Virus record (IMG/VR): IMGVR_UViG_3300035517_000383
Coordinates: 64,001 to 128,000 of that record
DNA length: 64,000 nt
Strand: one strand, 5' to 3'
From: a virus
Lineage: Duplodnaviria > Caudoviricetes
In this document: piece by piece, positions 2,257 through 52,200 of the stretch
Numbering within the stretch: position 1 is the stretch's first letter
Layout of the letters: each line of letters opens with the position of its first letter
Position numbers and translations under genes: made by a program
The notes under the pieces: generated by a model
What the model saw: only the letters and a program-made list of their open reading frames with translations
Told to the model about the DNA's origin: nothing
Databases searched by the model: none

Positions 2257-2805
2257 ATGGTTGGAATTTATTCTTTTACAAATATAATTAATGGAAAAGT
2301 CTACATTGGTAAGTCAGTTGATATAATTCGTAGATATAACGAACATATGGATTTTAGTCGTTATGCAACTCAATATGAGGATGAATTTCATTTTTTATTA
2401 AATGAACATCCCGAAAATTTTATATTTCAAATACTCGAAATTTGCAATAAAGAAGAACTTAATGAAAAAGAGGCTTATTATATAAATTATTATAATTCAA
2501 TAGAAAGTGGCTATAATAAAATTAAGGCTTCTAACAATTTTTATGAGGATAGCTGTGCGGCCGTCCCATCAAAAAGAGAGATAATAAAAATGATAACAAA
2601 CTTACTTGAAAAACCTTTATTTAAAGAAGATAAAGAAAAGTTAGCGAGATTTTTTAATTATAAAGGTTCTAAAGGACAATTATTAAAATGGAGAACAATT
2701 AAACAGATTATTATTGATAAGGGTTTTGATGTTGTAGAATCTAAAAGATTTTTTAATGGAAAAACGGTTAATTGTTCTATTATCAGATTAAGATGGGATG
2801 AATAA
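2257..2805 (+). CDS. Free-standing GIY-YIG endonuclease (putative homing endonuclease)
   Basis: N-terminus MVGIYSFTNIINGKVYIGKS..R..EH, later E..YI..YNS...GYN. Confidence 0.85.
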   Translation: MVGIYSFTNIINGKVYIGKSVDIIRRYNEHMDFSRYATQYEDEFHFLLNEHPENFIFQILEICNKEELNEKEAYYINYYNSIESGYNKIKASNNFYEDSCAAVPSKREIIKMITNLLEKPLFKEDKEKLARFFNYKGSKGQLLKWRTIKQIIIDKGFDVVESKRFFNGKTVNCSIIRLRWDE

Positions 2806-3301: not shown

Positions 3302-3844
3302 ATGAATTATCAAAAAATTAATTATTTTGACACCGCTAATGCACGAGGTCTATCAACTGTTTTATGGGTCAGTGGCTGTGAACATTATTGTGAGGATTGC
3401 TTTAATAAGGAGACTTGGAGTTTTGATAGTGGAAAAGAATTAACACAAAATAAAATTCGAGAAATTATTGCTTCTTTGAAGAATCGTCATATTAATAATT
3501 TTGTACTTAGTGGTGGTGACCCCTTGCACCCAAAGAACATAAGTGATACAATAGAGTTATGTAAGAAAATCAGACAAGAGGTTGAGGATATTAATATAAT
3601 TATTTACACTGGATATACTGTGAATGAATTATGGAATAGGGGTGAATATATGACCCTGTTTTCAATTGTGGATATTTTAATTGATGGTAGATATGATAAA
3701 ACTAAGCCTACTAAGGGATTAGATTATCGAGGTAGTACTAACCAAAGAGCAATTCAGTTTAAAGTTGATAAGAATGGAAAAATAATTGGTTATTATGATA
3801 AAAGCGATTTTTATTTTAAAGAATCTCAATTCATTATATCTTAG
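3302..3844 (+). CDS. nrdG: Anaerobic RNR activating enzyme (radical SAM)
   Basis: CEHYCEDC (CxxxCxxC), SGGDPL, YTGY, DILIDGRY, RGSTNQR. Ends in TAG; under code 15 it would extend to TAA at ~3856. Confidence 0.93.
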   Translation: MNYQKINYFDTANARGLSTVLWVSGCEHYCEDCFNKETWSFDSGKELTQNKIREIIASLKNRHINNFVLSGGDPLHPKNISDTIELCKKIRQEVEDINIIIYTGYTVNELWNRGEYMTLFSIVDILIDGRYDKTKPTKGLDYRGSTNQRAIQFKVDKNGKIIGYYDKSDFYFKESQFIIS

Positions 3845-3877
3845 TTTATAAATTAATACTTATTATTAGTTAATTAT

Positions 3878-3906
3878 TTGACTTTTTTATAAAAATATGA
3901 TATACT
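3878..3906 (+). promoter_or_regulatory. sigmaA-type promoter driving the large ncRNA
   Basis: ttgact 3878-3883, 17 nt, tg-a-tatact 3901-3906; no ORF follows. Confidence 0.75.
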
Positions 3907-3912
3907 ATATAA

Positions 3913-4482
3913 GTAAGATAAAATTCTTATTTACGGTTAGTTTTACTAACTGATTACCTCTACGATATATTCGTAACTACAAGTGAATAGCTAAGTAAGA
4001 ACTGATACAACACTAATGGATTGTACCACTGTATGAACAGCAAATTTAAGACAAAATGTTTTAATTTTAAATTAAACTAAATTGCCTTAACGCAGTAATG
4101 ACGCTGTAAAAGATACTGCGATAACAAAAAGAAATAAAGGGACTGTTGGGATGATAGGCTCTTTATTTCCATGTCTTTATAGTTTAATAAGCTGAGCAGT
4201 AGAAATTTATTCGTTTAATAAATATCGTAATATTAATCGTCAAAAAGGTATCTTAAACCTTTGACAAACGTATTGTCATAAAAGTAGGGGTAGGGCTTAT
4301 TGTAAATAGAAGAAACTGATTTGTCTTATAGGAGAGAAGTATAGACAGCACTTAACTTAATATTCTTTTTCAGTTTCAAGCCATCTGTGGTTTAAAGTTA
4401 TATAGTGTAAAAGGAAGAACTCATTTCGTATCAGTGACGGAACAGTTTAAAGCAAAAGACCAGAATTAATTTTCTGGTCTTT
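3913..4482 (+). ncRNA. Large structured non-coding RNA (~570 nt; ROOL/GOLLD-like size class, family not confirmed)
   Basis: Promoter upstream, terminator downstream, no ORF. Nested long-range helices: actgatac 4001-4008/gtatcagt 4428-4435, acacta 4010-4015/tagtgt 4403-4408, accac 4025-4029/gtggt 4387-4391. Local stems include cgcagta/tactgcg, gaaataaag/ctttatttc and gaaactga/tcagtttc. Confidence 0.7.
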
Positions 4483-4490
4483 ATTTGTTT
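4455..4490 (+). terminator. Rho-independent terminator
   Basis: aaagaccaga-loop-tctggtcttt followed by T-rich tail. Confidence 0.75.
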
Positions 4491-4569
4491 TCTCTTTCTT
4501 AGGGAAAAATCTATTTGAAATCGTTCGGGAACAGTTTAGTTTATAATATTTTTAAAGAGGTGAATTAAT

Positions 4570-5718
4570 ATTTTTATAAGTAATCAAAAATATTTTATTG
4601 ATAGAATAAACTCTCATGATGCAAATAAATTTGTAAGTATATACCACTATTCTCATAGCGGCTTTAAAGGTGCAAAATTAAACTTAGGAATTTATAATAT
4701 AAACACTAAAGAATTAGTTGGTGTTTAGCAATGGGGTCGTGCGGCTTAGTCTAAAATAAGACTTGACAGATATGTTAAAGAATCAATTAATATAGATGAA
4801 TATTATGAATTAAATAGATTTTGCATGGCTGATTCAGAAGAAAGAAATAGTGAAAGTCAAGCTATTTCTTTAGGTATAAAATGGATTAAGAAAAATTGTT
4901 AGAATATTAGATTATTAGTCTCTTATTCTGGCAGAAAAGAGGGAAATTATGGATATATTTATTAGGCTACTAATTGGGAGTATTTAGGTTATTTTTTATC
5001 TTCGGCTTTTTGGCGGCTTGACGGAGAAGAAAGACATTAGTTTACCGCTTGGTAGAGATATAAGTTACATGGAAACTAGAATTTAAGTTTTGTTGATGCA
5101 CTTTGTGAAATGTATCACGATGTCCGTTAGATTGAGAGTAAGCAATTTATTTATATAATAAGACTTGACAAAACTCTTACTCCCGCATCGACAGTACTTC
5201 CTTATCCCAAGTCAACAACTGAATATCCTATAGAAACAAACTGTATAATTTATTAGGAGGACAATAAATATTTGGAATATTCTTATAATTTAGAAAAGGA
5301 ACATTTTTATTATAAACCTTATCGAGAAAAAAGAAAAATAGATACAACTTGTTATAAATATGCTGTTTATGAATTAGATGGGACTTTAGAGGGAATTTTT
5401 GATAAACTAGGAGATATTAAAATTGATGGTTATACCTCAGATGGAATTCGTGCAGCCGCAAAAGAAAACAGAAAATACAAGAAAAAATATTTTTTGAGAG
5501 ATTTAGATGCTTCTAATTTTCCCTTACAGTTAGATATAACCCCAATATGCTGGATAGATGAAATTCCATTTTATACAAGACCTGATATTGTACAATATCT
5601 TCAAATTTCTAGACAAGCGGTACAGCAAGCTTGCGTACGTAAAAGTAAAATAATTGGTGGAAAGAATGTTATCTGGGGAGAGGAAAATAAAAATGAGCGA
5701 GTTTCGCACGAAAATTAA
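4570..5718 (+). CDS. Mom-like DNA-modification (GNAT-fold) protein with C-terminal NUMOD1/HTH-like extension; 9 in-frame TAG read as Gln
   Basis: With TAG=Q: HYSH...ELVGVQQWG...YELNRFCMADSEERNSESQAIS...LLVSYSGRKEGNYGYIYQATNWEYLG...LPYPK, continuing in frame into ORF 5272-5718. RBS GAGGTG at 4557-4562; only an ATT start is available. Confidence 0.75.
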
Positions 5719-5887
5719 AGCTTATGATAAAGAGGGTAATCTTTATGATTGTGAAATGGTTATAAATAATTGTAAATTGTTTCATAATGAGATAGAACGA
5801 TGTGAAGAAGTCACATTTAACAAGGAAACATCAATACAGTTTATTATTGATAATGCTAAAGAATTATTAGAAAGTCAAGATAAATAA
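5693..5887 (+). CDS. Small hypothetical protein
   Basis: ATG at 5693 after GAGGA RBS. Confidence 0.55.
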   Translation: MSEFRTKIKAYDKEGNLYDCEMVINNCKLFHNEIERCEEVTFNKETSIQFIIDNAKELLESQDK

Positions 5888-5889
5888 TC

Positions 5890-5918
5890 TTGACTTTTTC
5901 TTTAGTTTATGATATAAT
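5890..5918 (+). promoter_or_regulatory. sigmaA-type promoter overlapping a terminator hairpin
   Basis: ttgact-17-tataat. Confidence 0.8.
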
Positions 5919-5949
5919 TGTTATAGAAAATAAAAAAGGAGGAAAGTGA

Positions 5950-7806
5950 ATGAGTTATAATGCAAATGATTTAAAAACTCTCTCTGCTGGCGCGGCCTAT
6001 AGAGAAAAATTGGGTATGTATCTTTCAGCAGATTTACAAGAGGCTATTGATTTAGGACTACGAGAGCTTCTTTATAATGCTCAAGATGAATATGAAGCTA
6101 CTCATAAAGATGGAAGTCAAGTATCTATTACAATAGATACTAAAACTAATAAAATTATTGTAGAAGATAATTTAAGAGGTATTCCGTGTTCAATCAGAGA
6201 TGATGGAATTAATTCCCTTACTGCTGCCTGTTTACTACCTCATTCTGGTGCAAAGCATAAGGGTGAAAATGCTTATAAACAGGCGGTAGGTGTCAACGGG
6301 CAAGGAATGAAAATTGTCTGTCATACTTCTAGCTTTTTTGAAATTGAAGTAAAAAGAGATGGAAATATTTACTACCAATCTTTTCATGAAACAGACGAAG
6401 GTGCTGTCCCCAATGATGATGTAAAAATTATAGGAAGCACTTCTTTAACTGGAACAAAAATTACTTATATTCCATCTCCCACTGTATACGGAAAAGATAC
6501 TAAAATTGATATTGACCAACTTAAAAAGAATTTAACGGACTTATCTTATTTTACAAAAGGATTCAAAATCATTTTAGTTGTAGATGGAATTAAAACTGAA
6601 TTTTATTCAGAAAATGGACTTTTGGACGGTCTAGATTCTACACTAAGATACCATAAGAATGCTTTATATTTTCAAAAGGATTACAATGATTGTAGTGTGG
6701 AAATAGCAATTCAATGGAATAAAAAGCATGGGGAAATTAAACCTTATGCAAATAATTTGTATGTAAGAGATGGTGGCGCATTTATTGTAGGTTTTAAAAG
6801 GTCATTAACAACCACGTTTAATAGACTAGCTAATAAAAATTTTTCAGGAGACTTAATTAGAAAAACATTAGAAGGATATGTTAGTGTAAAAGTTTCTGAT
6901 GTTCAATTTTCAAATCAGGCTAAAACTGCTTTAGCTAATAAAGAAGCTCAAACTGCAACTTCTGCAGCAACTAAAGAAGCTTTAGAAACTTTTGCAAATA
7001 TTTTTAGAGATGATTTTTTTGCAATTGTCGAGGTACTATCAAAAGAAGAAAAAGCTGATAAGGCCGCGGAGAAAGCAAGAGAAAATGCACTAAAACGAGA
7101 TAATGAAATTAATAAAGAACTAAAGAAAAAAACAATTTTAGCGGGGAAACTTGCTGATTGTAGATACCATGATGAGAAATCTCAATTGATTATAGTAGAA
7201 GGCTTGTCAGCATTAGGCAGTATAATAAAATCAAGAAATAGTGATTATACAGCCGCTTTTCCATTGACAGGTAAAATTCTCAATGTACTAAAAAGTACAG
7301 AAGATGAACAAATTTCAAACGAAGTATTAAAAAATCTCCATACTGCTATTGGAGCTGGTTTTGGTTGTAATTTTAATATGAAAAAGATGAGATATGGAAG
7401 AATCGTTTTTGTGTGTGATGCAGATGAAGATGGATATTCTATTATGTGTTTGCTTTTGGCTTTTATGTATAAATATTATCCAGAATTGTTAAGACAGAAA
7501 AAGGTCTATTGGGGACAGACACCATTGTTTAAGGTTACAACAAAACAAGATAAAGTTTATTATGCATATACAGAAAAAGAACTCGAATCATTACCAGATG
7601 GTGATATTTTAAGAGCAAAAGGAATTGGAGAACTTGAACCAGAAGATTTTAAAAATACTCTTTTTTCAAAAGAAGGTAGATATATTCCTTTTAGTTTTGA
7701 AGATGCAGAAAAAGCAAATTATTATTTTGATGTATTACTTGGAGAGAATATTAAAGAACGTAAGGAATACATTAGTAAAAATGCAGATTTTGACGCTTTT
7801 GATTAA
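5950..7806 (+). CDS. gyrB: Type IIA topoisomerase B subunit (GyrB/ParE)
   Basis: GHKL motifs ELLYNAQDE, DNLRGIP, HSGAK, GVNGQG; TOPRIM IVEGLSA, PLTGKILNV, DADEDG, KGIGE. Confidence 0.93.
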   Translation: MSYNANDLKTLSAGAAYREKLGMYLSADLQEAIDLGLRELLYNAQDEYEATHKDGSQVSITIDTKTNKIIVEDNLRGIPCSIRDDGINSLTAACLLPHSGAKHKGENAYKQAVGVNGQGMKIVCHTSSFFEIEVKRDGNIYYQSFHETDEGAVPNDDVKIIGSTSLTGTKITYIPSPTVYGKDTKIDIDQLKKNLTDLSYFTKGFKIILVVDGIKTEFYSENGLLDGLDSTLRYHKNALYFQKDYNDCSVEIAIQWNKKHGEIKPYANNLYVRDGGAFIVGFKRSLTTTFNRLANKNFSGDLIRKTLEGYVSVKVSDVQFSNQAKTALANKEAQTATSAATKEALETFANIFRDDFFAIVEVLSKEEKADKAAEKARENALKRDNEINKELKKKTILAGKLADCRYHDEKSQLIIVEGLSALGSIIKSRNSDYTAAFPLTGKILNVLKSTEDEQISNEVLKNLHTAIGAGFGCNFNMKKMRYGRIVFVCDADEDGYSIMCLLLAFMYKYYPELLRQKKVYWGQTPLFKVTTKQDKVYYAYTEKELESLPDGDILRAKGIGELEPEDFKNTLFSKEGRYIPFSFEDAEKANYYFDVLLGENIKERKEYISKNADFDAFD

Positions 7807-49200: not shown

Positions 49201-52200
49201 ACCCTAACGGTGCTTGGATGCTGATTGTCCAATCCTAATAATTTTCAAACTTTCACACTTAAGATTTCTCTTTATGTTGTAGTTTATTAGGCTCTAAGGA
49301 GTTTCCAGCAATTCAAATATTATAGCCTTAATTTAAGCTATGAATCTACTTTGCTGCAAGTAGATTATTTAATATGTTTTTTCCAATAATAATTATGGGT
49401 TTTGTTTCCATTTCTTATTGCCCGTCTTATAAGTGCAGGCTAGCATTTCATTTCTTTTGCCGCCGCAGCAATAGATGGAAAAATTTTAATGATATTTCCC
49501 TCAATATCAATTTGTTCTACAGGTATCATATTTCTGTGACCATTATTCATTGCGTTATTCATATTTTCTGAATGAGAAATGTCTCTTAAATTTGTATAAT
49601 GATTATTCAATTTATTACCATCTATATGGTCTATTTCATTAAAAATTATATTATTAACAAAAGCTTTGTAGACTAAAATATGAGCAGGAATTGTTTTCAA
49701 TTCATTATTAATATAAATCGAATAACGTAAGTACCCATCTTTTTTAGGTCTTAGCTTTATTCTTGTATTGGAATTATAAATTTCTCCATTTTCAGAAATA
49801 TAATACTAAGTATTTTCAATCTATCTCCATTGTTTACTGTTTAGTTCTTTCTCTGTAATATATTGTTTAGTAGTATTACTTGTTTTGCGGCCAGCAATAT
49901 ACGCTTCTTTTAAGTTTGTAGAAAAATCAACCCATTCTAAATTATTTTTATGATTATTAAGACGATTACCGTCTTTATGATGAACACATGAAAAATTATT
50001 ATCATTACTTAAAAAATATTCTGCAACTAATCTATGAGCTAGTTTATTATAATACTTCCCTTTAATCGTTAACTAATAAGTTCTATAACCTGTTGAATTA
50101 ACACTCCCTTTTAAATAATGATTTGTTTTTTTGTTAAATAAACGTCCATCATCAAAAATTAGATAGTTTGTTTCCTAATCATTAATTATTATTGTTTTAT
50201 ACATATTATCACCTTCTTATATTTTTCAATAAAGCTCGACTATATAATTTACTATTAGTAATTCTCTTTTAAGTCTGTGAACCTTCACCTTAGCGGTGCT
50301 TGGATGCTGATTATCTATTTTATAGTAACCTATAAATCCAATCATTTTTTAGAACCATCACACTTAAGATTTCTCTTTATGTTGTGGTATAATTGGCTTT
50401 AAGACGTTCCAGCATTTGAAAGAATTGTGTTTTTTTAGGCCGTACACTTCGCCAGCATTTTAACGAGAACCGGCCGCCGTAGTTGCTATCAGTTTTTCCT
50501 ATTATCTTTCAATAATAGCTAGACTATATCATAAGTTAATATTTAATTAACTTCCCACTACTTCGATTTTCTAAAATCTACTCTACTTATAATTTCGATA
50601 GTCGTTGAACGGTTTATTTACTATAGTAAATAAGTTCGCTGCGGATTGTCCAAAATAACACGATATTACCATACCTTAGTCATTACCTTCGCCGCAACTC
50701 TTAGAATTGTTTGGTTGTGTTATTTTTAAGGAGATTCCCGCAATTCAATGGGTTACGTTACCTAGCTTTATTATTTTTTATTTAAGAATTCATCATATTC
50801 TGCTTTTGAAATTTCCCTCCAATAATAACCGTGACTAATGCCGCCAGTTTTCATTGCACGAGAGAGATTCGAGCAATTGTTTAATCCAAGACTTCTTGCA
50901 GCTTCTGAGGTACTAGGAAAAACTTGAATTAAATTCATCTCTAAATCATATTGTCCAGTCAGTTTTGTTTGTTTTGTTTTTGTTTGATAATAACTTTTTA
51001 TAACATTCTCTCTTTGAGAAACATTCTCTAAATTACTTAATCTATTATTGCCTCTGTTAGAATCAATATGATTAATAACATTGATTTTTTCATCTGGGTG
51101 GAAAACCATATAAACAGCTCTATGAGCTTGAATTTCTTGTCGATTTCCATCTAAATCGTTATATGTCCACCTAATATAACCACTATTTTTATTCCTACTA
51201 CCAAAAGTTATCTTTCCAGTCTGTAAATTTTTAATTCTACCCATATTGGATACTTCATATTTACTATTTTGTAAAGGTTTCCATTCTTCCTCTTCTAATT
51301 CTTCTGATGTTAATTTCTCAGTTATTTTATGTTCAACTGGATTAATAATTTTATTAAGATTTTCTTCTTGGCTTACCCATTCTAAATTATCTAAGGCATT
51401 ATTTCTTGGACACCCATCTTTATGATGAACAATAGGTTTGTTTTCAGGGTTTGGAATAAATAATCGCGCCATTAATTGATGTTTATAAATGCCTATCGTT
51501 TCTCCGTCAATTTCAAGAGTAAATCTTATATACCCTTGGTTTATTGCACCTTGTGCAATTCTATGCGTATTTTCATTATATAAATCTCCATTCTTAAATA
51601 AAAAATACTGTGTTTCCTTTCCATTAATTATGACTGGTTTTCCTTCAACCATTTTTATATCACTCCTAGCTATAATATTTAGTAAAGATTTTCCTTTACT
51701 AATAATATTATATCACAAAATATTATTAAAGTCAATATTTTAAAAATGTTTTTCTTGTGATACAAGCATATTTTTAAAAATGGAATGGTATCCGATAACG
51801 CTATGTATTGCGGTCAAGTGTATTCCATTTAGCACTCAACTCTAAAAATACATCATCTAAGTCTCTAAATTGTCCTGTGGTATCTTTTAATGAAATACCT
51901 ACAGATTTTAACGCAGTATCTACGTCATTATAATCTAAGTCGTCAAATTCTGAATCAGAGGCCGAGACATTTTCCTTTAATTCTGTGAATCTGGCGATTA
52001 TTGTTTTCATTCGTTTTATGTTCCTTTATAAAGTCGCAATTTTTATAAAGACCCAATAGGGTTTTCTTTATGTTACCATAAAGACCAGACTATATCTTCA
52101 TCTTATTTTTAAAATAAGAGTCTCCCATTTCGAGGTCATTCACTTACCTCTATCGGCATTTCAGCCGTTAGTCTTTGAACCTTTAATTAGGGAATTAGTA

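What the first reader, a model, noticed from the sequence alone, without database searches (positions are those of the whole stretch)
3913..4482. Independently transcribed ~570-nt ornate ncRNA
Seen: consensus promoter (3878-3906), terminator (4455-4490) and no ORF even with TAG=Q. Three nested long-range helices (4001/4428, 4010/4403, 4025/4387) enclose further stems: gcaaattta/taaattgc, cgcagta/tactgcg, gaaataaag/ctttatttc, gtcaaa..aggt/acct..ttgac, ggctt/aagcc, gaaactga/tcagtttc. It lacks group I P7, tmRNA ends and the RNase P GAGGAAAGUCC motif. Established: large phage-associated RNAs of unknown function (ROOL, GOLLD) exist in Firmicute phages. Inference: a ROOL-like or new large RNA class, sitting directly upstream of a DNA-modification gene.
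Basis: partly seen in the sequence, partly recalled or inferred. Interest (0 to 1): 0.8.

Follow-up and report, generated by a model that had tools for sequence, protein, structure and literature searches.

The report
New large pseudoknotted phage RNA gene
A stop-codon-recoded phage carries a stand-alone gene for a roughly 580-base, heavily folded non-coding RNA that matches no known RNA family, recurs in three other phage lineages, and has no known function.

Summary
The feature is real. Window 3857-4568 has no conserved reading frame, even with TAG=Q. It starts at a recurrent TTGACT-17-TATACT phage promoter (3878-3906) and ends at an intrinsic terminator (4455-4490).

I found homologues of 590-620 nt in three other TAG-recoded phage lineages from IMG/VR. 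Each has its own promoter and terminal hairpin, and each sits between different replication or nucleotide-metabolism genes.

On structure-blind alignments, 51 base pairs are about 94% canonical, against 32-55% when partners are slid. Twenty-one pairs show compensatory changes, and 0 of 500 shuffles reach the observed values.

One pseudoknot is well supported and a second is probable.

No Rfam 15 family matches, including ROOL, GOLLD, OLE, group I introns, RNase P and tmRNA.

Its three nested long-range helices and three other stems are not conserved; the homologues support different partners. The link to mom is incidental.

Best reading: a mobile, moron-like gene for a trans-acting folded RNA, and a new family of the large ornate phage RNA kind. 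Function is unknown. The family is rare: 4 lineages among about 75 related phage records searched. This scan had flagged the same stretch once before, on an overlapping window of the same genome.

The parts
3878..3906 (+). Sigma-70-type promoter TTGACT-17-TATACT with TG before the -10 box. The start of transcription is inferred near 3913.
   Evidence: The same ~45-nt promoter-like sequence recurs at 14 other places in the genome. All three homologues have TTGACT or TTGATT-17-TATAAT with TG at the same place.
3913..4490 (+). The RNA gene, about 578 nt from the inferred start to the end of the T-run.
   Evidence: No conserved ORF. Homologues: L038:3064-3676(+), L029:1180-1801(-) and L080:1212-1802(-). 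Invariant G-U pairs fix the + strand.
3914..3974 (+). Variable 5' domain. It holds hairpins H1 (3914-3918/3925-3929), H2 (3936-3941/3945-3950) and H3 (3962-3965/3971-3974), plus the single-stranded TGATTACCTCT (3951-3961).
   Evidence: In three lineages the hairpins sit at the same places with different sequences. H3 reads ACGA/UCGU, CCGA/UCGG or CCGU/ACGG. The fourth lineage (G011) has a different 5' domain.
4006..4025 (+). H4 hairpin TACAA/TTGTA with a GGA-containing loop.
   Evidence: C-G changes to U-A in G001.
4046..4090 (+). H5 helix TTAAGAC/GCCTTAA, enclosing a variable tip.
   Evidence: UCAUGGU/ACCAUGA in L038 and UUAAGGU/ACCUUAA in G001, with two compensatory positions. There is one A-C mismatch in this phage.
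4091..4120 (+). H6 helix CGCAGTA/TACTGCG with a conserved 16-nt loop.
   Evidence: helix 1: 3 of 7 pairs change on both sides.
4109..4178 (+). Pseudoknot PK1: the H6 loop AAAGAT (4109-4114) pairs with GTCTTT (4173-4178) downstream of H7.
   Evidence: helix 2: 100% paired in four lineages, and 2 of the 5 counted pairs change on both sides. The four versions are AAAGAU/GUCUUU, AAUGAC/GUCAUU, AAAGAC/GUCUUU and GAGGAU/GUCCUC.
4131..4169 (+). H7/H7b, a 16-bp hairpin. Its top, GGGACTGTYGNGATRATAGGCTC, is almost invariant and is the signature of the family.
   Evidence: helix 3: 7 of 16 pairs change on both sides in the lower stem, and the top is invariant. Used as a search pattern.
4181..4193 (+). 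H8 small hairpin AGTTT/AAGCT.
   Evidence: helix 4: weak support, with one compensatory pair.
4212..4239 (+). H9 helix CGTTTAATA/TATTAATCG with a U-U mismatch. Its loop is the site of variable insertions.
   Evidence: U-A changes to G-C in G001. The loop is 10 nt here, 24 nt in L038 and 107 nt in G001.
4246..4278 (+). H10 (AGGT/ACCT, 4246-4249/4257-4260) and H11 (TGACAA/TTGTCA, 4262-4267/4273-4278).
   Evidence: helices 1 and 2: 100% paired, and 5 of 6 H11 pairs change on both sides.
4279..4311 (+). Conserved G-rich single strand, TAAAAGTAGGGGTAGGGCTTATTG... Its partner is not resolved.
   Evidence: Conserved in all four lineages. Candidate partners were examined by hand from the sequences and none was consistent.
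4312..4377 (+). H12 helix GAAACTGA/TCAGTTTC, enclosing H13 (TGTCT/AGACA, 4322-4326/4343-4347). The H13 loop carries a conserved AGGAG.
   Evidence: H12: helix 3. In G001 the pairing is kept with a 6-nt bulge. H13: the four lineages have four different stems (UGUCU/AGACA, CGAUG/CAUCG, CCCUU/AAGGG, GUCGA/UCGAC) around the same loop motif.
4348..4408 (+). Probable pseudoknot PK2: GCACT-TAAC (4348-4356) pairs with GTTA-tat-AGTGT (4397-4408), across the 3' strand of H12.
   Evidence: The same two-segment duplex starts at the first base after H13 in all four lineages. The duplex-versus-shuffle test gives p = 0.27, 0.09, 0.16 and 0.01. My own Fisher combination is about 0.01.
4378..4393 (+). H14 hairpin AAGCCA/TGGTTT.
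   Evidence: A hairpin at the same place with other sequences in L038 and G011. It is absent in G001.
4455..4490 (+). Intrinsic terminator: an 11-bp stem, a 6-nt loop and a T-rich tail.
   Evidence: All four lineages end in a stable hairpin (-9.7 to -24.8 kcal/mol) with a U-tract.
4499..4535 (+). Conserved block downstream of the terminator, TAGGGAAAAATCTATTTGAAATCGTTCGGGAACAG. Unexplained.
   Evidence: Conserved in L038 and G011, and more weakly in G001. CTATTTG is complementary to the conserved TGAATAG at 3983-3989.

Best explanation
Window 3878-4490 is a self-contained gene for a non-coding RNA of about 580 nt.

Shown:
- It has a promoter of the class the phage uses for its rightward early/replication block.
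- It has no conserved reading frame.
- It has a fold of at least 14 helices conserved through compensatory changes, with one well-supported and one probable pseudoknot.
- It has an intrinsic terminator.
- The whole promoter-RNA-terminator unit occupies different sites in the replication and nucleotide-metabolism module of four related TAG-to-Gln recoded phages. It is absent from most of their relatives.

Inferred:
- It behaves like a 'moron', an accessory transcription unit that moves as a cassette.
- The RNA acts in trans as a folded molecule. The near-invariant H7 hairpin top, the H10/H11 pair, the G-rich strand and the exposed AGGAG loop are likely contact surfaces for a protein, for another RNA or for copies of itself.
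- It therefore works like the large ornate phage RNAs ROOL and GOLLD, as a scaffold, decoy or assembly. It does not code, and it does not regulate its neighbour in cis.

Odds: I put about 0.9 on 'a real stand-alone structured RNA gene' and about 0.35 on 'a trans-acting scaffold, decoy or assembly' specifically. The biochemical function is not known.
For: - Promoter and terminator.
- No conserved ORF in any of four lineages.
- Homologues at 66-72% identity with indels in hairpin loops, including a 97-nt alignment gap in the H9 loop.
- A fourth lineage found only with a covariance model (62 bits, E 9e-13).
- Covariation on MAFFT alignments made without structure: 33 pairs, 94.6% of cells paired against 41-55% when slid, 13 pairs changed on both sides against 2-3 when slid. 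0 of 500 shuffles reach the observed value on four of five measures, and 1 of 500 on the fifth (further pair types).
- Covariation on the second alignment: 18 pairs, 94.4% paired against 32-50% when slid, 8 pairs changed on both sides against 0-3. 0 of 500 shuffles reach the observed value on four of five measures; the fifth (further pair types) is reached by 107 of 500.
- Four invariant G-U pairs would be A-C on the other strand, which fixes the + strand.
- The flanking genes differ in each lineage: nrdG and mom; NT5C and ligase; RNase H plus a 233-aa ORF and NT5C; PhoH and an HTH gene.
- In G011 the next gene has its own promoter downstream.
- Close relatives L009 and L011 have nrdG, a 175-aa ORF and gyrB with no RNA and no mom.
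- The own genome has RNase H at the site where G001 has the RNA.
Against: - There is no expression data of any kind.
- Only four sequence lineages exist, so the covariation statistics have limited power. Part of the helix table (H1, H2, H13, H14, PK2) was fitted by eye.
- Conservation continues about 40 nt past the terminator, so the true 3' end or a read-through form is uncertain.
- In this phage no separate promoter for mom was found between 4490 and 4570. Mom is therefore probably transcribed through the RNA's terminator, and the unit is not fully insulated here.
- Nothing tested bears on what the RNA binds.
Confidence: 0.7

Rival explanations
1. It is a long cis-acting leader, an attenuator or riboswitch-like element. 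It would control read-through of the terminator at 4455-4490 into the downstream gene, which here is the TAG-rich mom-like gene.
For: No sigma-70-like promoter was found between the terminator and the mom-like start. The nearest candidate, by my own reading, has a 21-nt spacer. Conservation continues past the terminator to just before the next ribosome-binding site in this phage and in L038.
Against: The downstream gene differs in each lineage: mom, DNA ligase, NT5C and an HTH gene. In G011 a full promoter lies between the RNA unit and the next gene. Eleven other Mom-like genes have no such leader. At about 580 nt it exceeds any known bacterial leader, to my own knowledge.
Confidence: 0.08
2. 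It is a replication-origin transcript, in the manner of ColE1 RNA II. A folded RNA of about 550 nt would prime or open an origin. The G-rich block would anchor an R-loop and RNase H would process it.
For: It always lies in the replication module, near RNase H, ligase, helicase or gyrase genes. The size is similar. It has a conserved G-rich strand in a 30% GC genome.
Against: The cumulative GC skew turns at about 55-56 kb and 93-94 kb of the genome, not at 67.9 kb where the RNA lies. A strong intrinsic terminator releases the RNA. The unit sits at different places in related genomes and is absent from most relatives, which is unlike an origin.
Confidence: 0.05
3. It is a divergent member of a known large RNA family: ROOL, GOLLD, OLE, a group I or group II intron, RNase P RNA or tmRNA.
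For: Its size (about 580 nt), pseudoknots and phage location resemble ROOL as described in PMC12286853. The genome is full of group I introns.
Against: No Rfam 15 family matches at E<=10 in this RNA or in two of its homologues. ROOL run alone on the whole genome gives nothing. The group I model finds five introns elsewhere in the window with the same tool but nothing here. ARAGORN finds no tmRNA. There are no flanking exons; a promoter and a terminator flank it instead.
Confidence: 0.03
4. It is a decayed remnant with no function as RNA: a pseudogene, a dead intron or a dead mobile element.
For: The distribution is sporadic and the region is AT-rich. The single-sequence folding z-score is modest and similar on both strands.
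Against: Compensatory changes keep 21 of the 51 tested pairs intact across lineages that differ at about 30% of positions. The promoter and terminator are retained in all four lineages. There is no trace of a frame.
Confidence: 0.03

Closest known systems
ROOL RNA (Rfam RF03087)
   Same: Encoded by phages and prophages, about 580 nt, with a complex fold and several pseudoknots. It is a free-standing gene of unknown function (PMC12286853).
   Different: There is no similarity to the ROOL covariance model. It is not near tRNA genes: the phage's tRNAs lie about 40 kb away on the other arm. The conserved motifs differ. Whether it forms a multimeric cage is untested.
GOLLD RNA
   Same: A large ornate RNA of phages and prophages of unknown function, made during lytic growth (PMC12286853).
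   Different: GOLLD is often over 800 nt, lies near tRNA islands and has a different secondary structure. The all-family Rfam scans give no match. My attempt to run GOLLD alone used a wrong accession, so GOLLD rests on the all-family scans only.
OLE RNA
   Same: About 600 nt, highly structured, with long stretches of invariant nucleotides.
   Different: OLE is a chromosomal gene of extremophilic and anaerobic Bacillota, with the partner genes oapA, oapB and oapC (PMC12054373 abstract; partner names from my own knowledge). There is no Rfam match and no such partner genes beside this RNA.
Phage morons (promoter-gene-terminator cassettes)
   Same: A self-contained transcription unit, inserted between conserved genes at different sites in related phages and absent from many relatives.
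   Different: Classical morons encode proteins, to my own knowledge. Here the cargo is a large structured RNA.
ColE1 RNA II
   Same: An untranslated, folded transcript of about 550 nt made from its own promoter inside a replication region.
   Different: RNA II is not ended by an intrinsic terminator at its functional end and always sits at a fixed distance from the origin. Here the unit moves, and the GC skew gives no origin signal.

Membership tests
ROOL (RF03087) | Scores at or above the family's covariance-model threshold (99.1 bits). | tested here: not met
   No match at E<=10 in the whole 152-kb genome. Nothing in the E<=10 all-family scans of this RNA or of two homologues. The control genomes did not ring either, so the negative rests on Infernal alone.
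ROOL (RF03087) | Often encoded next to tRNA islands in phages and prophages. | tested here: not met
   No tRNA in the 64-kb window. The six tRNAs lie at genome positions 25.6-27.8 kb and the RNA at 67.9 kb.
ROOL (RF03087) | Forms a homo-octameric RNA-only cage. | not testable with these tools
   This needs cryo-EM or sizing of the transcript.
GOLLD / OLE / raiA / HEARO and other large Rfam RNAs | A match to the family covariance model. | tested here: not met
   Scans of all 4227 Rfam 15 families at E<=10 give only four chance-level hits, all far below their gathering scores, and none inside the homologues.
Group I intron (RF00028) | A catalytic core recognised by the model, and insertion within a gene so that exons are rejoined. 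| tested here: not met
   The model finds five introns elsewhere in this window but nothing at 3700-4700. The element is flanked by a complete nrdG gene, a promoter and a terminator.
tmRNA / RNase P RNA | A tRNA-like domain with a tag frame, or the conserved RNase P core. | tested here: not met
   ARAGORN finds no tmRNA. No Rfam match.
Cis-regulatory leader (riboswitch, attenuator, T-box) | Conserved linkage to the same downstream gene or pathway. | tested here: not met
   Four lineages have four different downstream genes. In G011 a promoter lies between the unit and the next gene.
Structured non-coding RNA gene (generic) | A fold conserved through compensatory base changes, no conserved ORF, and its own transcription signals. 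| tested here: met
   covariation with controls; no common frame; signals.

The most novel reading that the evidence does not exclude
This is the founding member of a previously undescribed class of large phage RNA. On this reading it has an activity of its own: a new large ribozyme, an RNA-only assembly, or an RNA decoy against a host defence or translation factor. It is carried as a mobile accessory cassette by stop-codon-recoded phages.
Probability: 0.3. Interest if true: 0.85.

Novelty: new variant of a known kind. Interest (0 to 1): 0.62.

Why it matters
To my knowledge few bacterial or phage RNAs above 500 nt have a conserved, pseudoknotted fold, and several (RNase P, group I and II introns, OLE, ROOL, GOLLD) have proved to be a ribozyme, a ribonucleoprotein or an unexpected RNA-only assembly. 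This family adds a candidate that Rfam 15 does not hold.

It comes from uncultured phages that read TAG as glutamine, a group whose biology is poorly known. The family already offers a promoter, a terminator, four natural sequence variants and a partly solved secondary structure. That is enough to synthesise the RNA and test it by chemical probing, sizing or cryo-EM without needing the host.

Its behaviour as a mobile cassette suggests an accessory role. Anti-defence or host take-over functions would be plausible.

Tried and rejected
- BLAST of the region against 50,697 deposited phage genomes gave no match.
- Sequencing-run look-up: none was listed, and no RNA holder was listed. There is therefore no expression test.
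- Pattern scans of the metagenome and genome collections with the H7 signature gave only chance matches, which the family profile rejected. Extra IMG/VR patterns added nothing new.
- A profile search of 65 loci around NrdG, Mom and NT5C relatives found only the known copies.
- Covariance-model searches of 72 related phage records found one new lineage. The other hits, at 15-26 bits, are terminator-like hairpins.
RNAalifold on two or three sequences over-predicted and was not used.
- A possible circular permutation (the G001 5' end resembling the 3' tail of the others) was dropped. This phage has the motif at both ends.
- The idea of symmetric palindromic kissing loops, as in OLE and GOLLD, was dropped. 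The H11 loop reads ACGUA, ACAUA or ACGCA and does not stay palindromic. UUAA in the H10 loop is invariant and so uninformative.
- The idea of a CsrA or anti-Shine-Dalgarno sponge (GGA and AGGAG loops) rests on only two or three motifs. It was not pursued.
- A pairing of CCUCU (3957-3961) with the AGGAG loop gives 4-5 bp, competes with H3, shows no covariation and is absent in G011.
- The partner of the G-rich strand was not resolved.
- GOLLD run alone: I used a wrong accession (a group II intron domain model, which also gave no match).
- I did not look for a reverse transcriptase in the genome.

Full report
WHERE IT LIES. The window is bases 64001-128000 of a 152-kb IMG/VR phage record (30% GC, estimated 92% complete). 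The phage reads TAG as a sense codon. It encodes a tRNA with anticodon CTA, and genes such as the mom-like one only open with TAG=Q (nine TAGs). The finding lies in the rightward replication and nucleotide-metabolism block. The order is nrdD (3-2129), a GIY-YIG endonuclease (2257-2805), a 141-aa ORF, nrdG (3302-3856), the gap (3857-4569), a Mom-family gene (4570-5718; Pfam PF25680, E 8e-42) and a gyrB-like topoisomerase subunit (5950-7806). No deposited phage is close; the topoisomerase is at most 34% identical.

THE OBSERVATION. The promoter is more than a chance match. About 45 nt around it recur at 14 other places in the genome. There is no ORF of any length shared with the homologues. Under a very lenient ORF definition, only six stretches of 250 nt or more in the genome lack a frame. 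One of the others lies at the tRNA cluster and one holds group I introns. Single-sequence folding is only mildly better than shuffles, and equally so on both strands (z -2.8 and -3.2), so it proves nothing.

HOMOLOGUES. BLAST against the related phage G001 (157 kb) found the same element at about 72% identity in another place. A signature from the most conserved hairpin then retrieved all copies present in IMG/VR. These are five near-identical contigs of the G001 type and one distinct 5-kb contig, L038 (66% identity over the full length). A covariance model of the core found a fourth lineage, G011, at 62 bits. The lengths are 578, 613, 622 and 591 nt.

All four copies start just after a TTGACT or TTGATT-17-TATAAT promoter with TG. 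All four end in a stable hairpin with a U-tract; the simple scan flags two of them.

The neighbours differ in each lineage:
- this phage: nrdG and mom;
- G001: NT5C and DNA ligase;
- L038: RNase H plus a 233-aa ORF, then NT5C and ligase;
- G011: PhoH, then an HTH gene leading on to DnaB.

In the window's own genome, RNase H occupies the NT5C-ligase gap where G001 has the RNA. The close relatives L009 and L011 have a 175-aa ORF between nrdG and gyrB, with neither the RNA nor mom. Eleven other Mom-like loci have no such gap or sequence. The unit therefore moves as a cassette, and its position next to mom is incidental. Covariance-model searches of 72 further related records found no other copy, and neither did pattern scans of the metagenome and prokaryote genome collections. 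The family is rare.

STRUCTURE. I tested the structure on MAFFT alignments made without any structural input.
- Core A (4084-4211) holds H6, PK1, H7/H7b and H8: 33 pairs. 94.6% of cells are paired, against 41-55% with partners slid by 1-3 columns. 13 pairs change on both sides, against 2-3. On four of five measures 0 of 500 shuffles reach the observed value; on the fifth, 1 of 500 does.
- Core B (4231-4414) holds H10, H11 and H12: 18 pairs. 94.4% are paired, against 32-50%. 8 pairs are compensated, against 0-3. On four of five measures 0 of 500 shuffles reach the observed value; the fifth (further pair types) is reached by 107 of 500.

Invariant G-U pairs in H7 and H8 would be A-C on the other strand, so the + strand is the RNA strand.

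PK1 pairs the H6 loop with the strand after H7. It is paired in every lineage, with A-U changing to G-C and to U-A.

A hand-made table adds H1-H5, H9, H13, H14 and PK2. It holds 95 pairs, 53 of them with changes on both sides and 8 of 355 cells unpaired. Those registers were chosen by eye and are weaker evidence.

PK2 pairs the segment just after H13 with the 3' tail. It has the same two-segment geometry in all four lineages. Duplex-versus-shuffle p values are 0.27, 0.09, 0.16 and 0.01. My own Fisher combination is about 0.01, so I rate PK2 as probable.

Length variation falls in hairpin loops. The H9 loop is 10, 24 or 107 nt long in three lineages, and the H5 tip is replaced outright.

Its three nested long-range helices, gcaaattta/taaattgc, gtcaaa/ttgac and ggctt/aagcc are not conserved.

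WHAT IT IS NOT. No Rfam 15 family matches in this RNA or in two of its homologues at E<=10. ROOL run alone on the genome gives nothing. The group I intron model works in this very window, finding five introns, but is silent here. No tRNA or tmRNA is found. A published survey of IMG/VR structured RNAs reports motifs of 29-151 nt only (PMC10690425), so it cannot describe this RNA as a whole. I found no paper describing a large RNA of this kind in recoded phages, but the library is not exhaustive.

HOW IT PROBABLY WORKS. What is shown is a stand-alone, promoter-to-terminator RNA gene with a selected fold, mobile within the replication module. I infer that it acts in trans as a folded RNA, through its invariant hairpin top (GGGACUGUYGNGAURAUAGGCUC), the H10/H11 pair, the G-rich strand and the AGGAG loop. 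It may serve as a protein scaffold or decoy, or as a self-assembling particle like ROOL and GOLLD (PMC12286853).

- A cis-leader role is unlikely. The downstream genes differ, and in G011 a promoter intervenes.
- An origin-primer role is unlikely. The GC skew turns at about 55 kb and 94 kb, not at 67.9 kb, and the unit is dispensable in relatives.

Two facts keep the picture open. Conservation continues about 40 nt past the terminator. In this phage, mom has no promoter of its own.

VERDICT. This is a real and apparently undescribed family of large pseudoknotted phage RNA. It is a new variant of the 'large ornate phage RNA of unknown function' kind. It is rare, has no expression data and has no function assigned.

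Noticed in passing
window 50217-50478 and 50500-50796, minus strand: Two tandem group I introns (Rfam RF00028, 50.3 and 61.7 bits). The whole-window gathering scan missed them, although both reach the threshold. With the three found, the window holds at least five.
   Followed up: partly
window 4499-4535: A block of about 35 nt downstream of the RNA's terminator is conserved in the other lineages. It is complementary in part (CTATTTG) to the conserved TGAATAG at 3983-3989. It may be a closing helix in read-through transcripts, a processing site or a DNA-level element.
   Followed up: partly
window 4570-5718: The Mom-family DNA-modification gene has nine in-frame TAG codons. It has no ATG, GTG or TTG start behind its GAGGTG ribosome-binding site; the frame opens with ATT at 4570. 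It has no promoter of its own after the RNA's terminator, and it carries a C-terminal extension of about 170 aa with no Pfam match.
   Followed up: partly
window 3857-5950 compared with L009:4552-5162 and L011:4555-5733: The RNA, the mom-like gene and a 77-aa ORF replace a single 175-aa ORF that sits between nrdG and the gyrB-like gene in the closest relatives. This is a variable insertion hotspot.
   Followed up: partly
genome G000:C1:27510-27603 (outside the window): A tRNA with anticodon CTA, which ARAGORN calls Pyl. It lies in a cluster of six tRNAs on the leftward arm and is the likely TAG suppressor.
   Followed up: no
L029:1408-1510 (minus strand), G001 lineage: The H9 loop is 107 nt long in this lineage, against 10 nt in the window (a 97-nt gap in the pairwise alignment). 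Its own structure was not examined.
   Followed up: no
window 2257-2805: A free-standing GIY-YIG homing-endonuclease gene lies between nrdD and nrdG. L038 has an HNH-like ORF two genes upstream of its RNA copy. Mobile endonucleases are frequent around these loci.
   Followed up: no
genome G000:C1, about 55-56 kb and 93-94 kb: The cumulative GC skew has its minimum and maximum here, matching the switches of transcription direction. The rightward block at 56-94 kb holds the replication genes and the RNA.
   Followed up: partly
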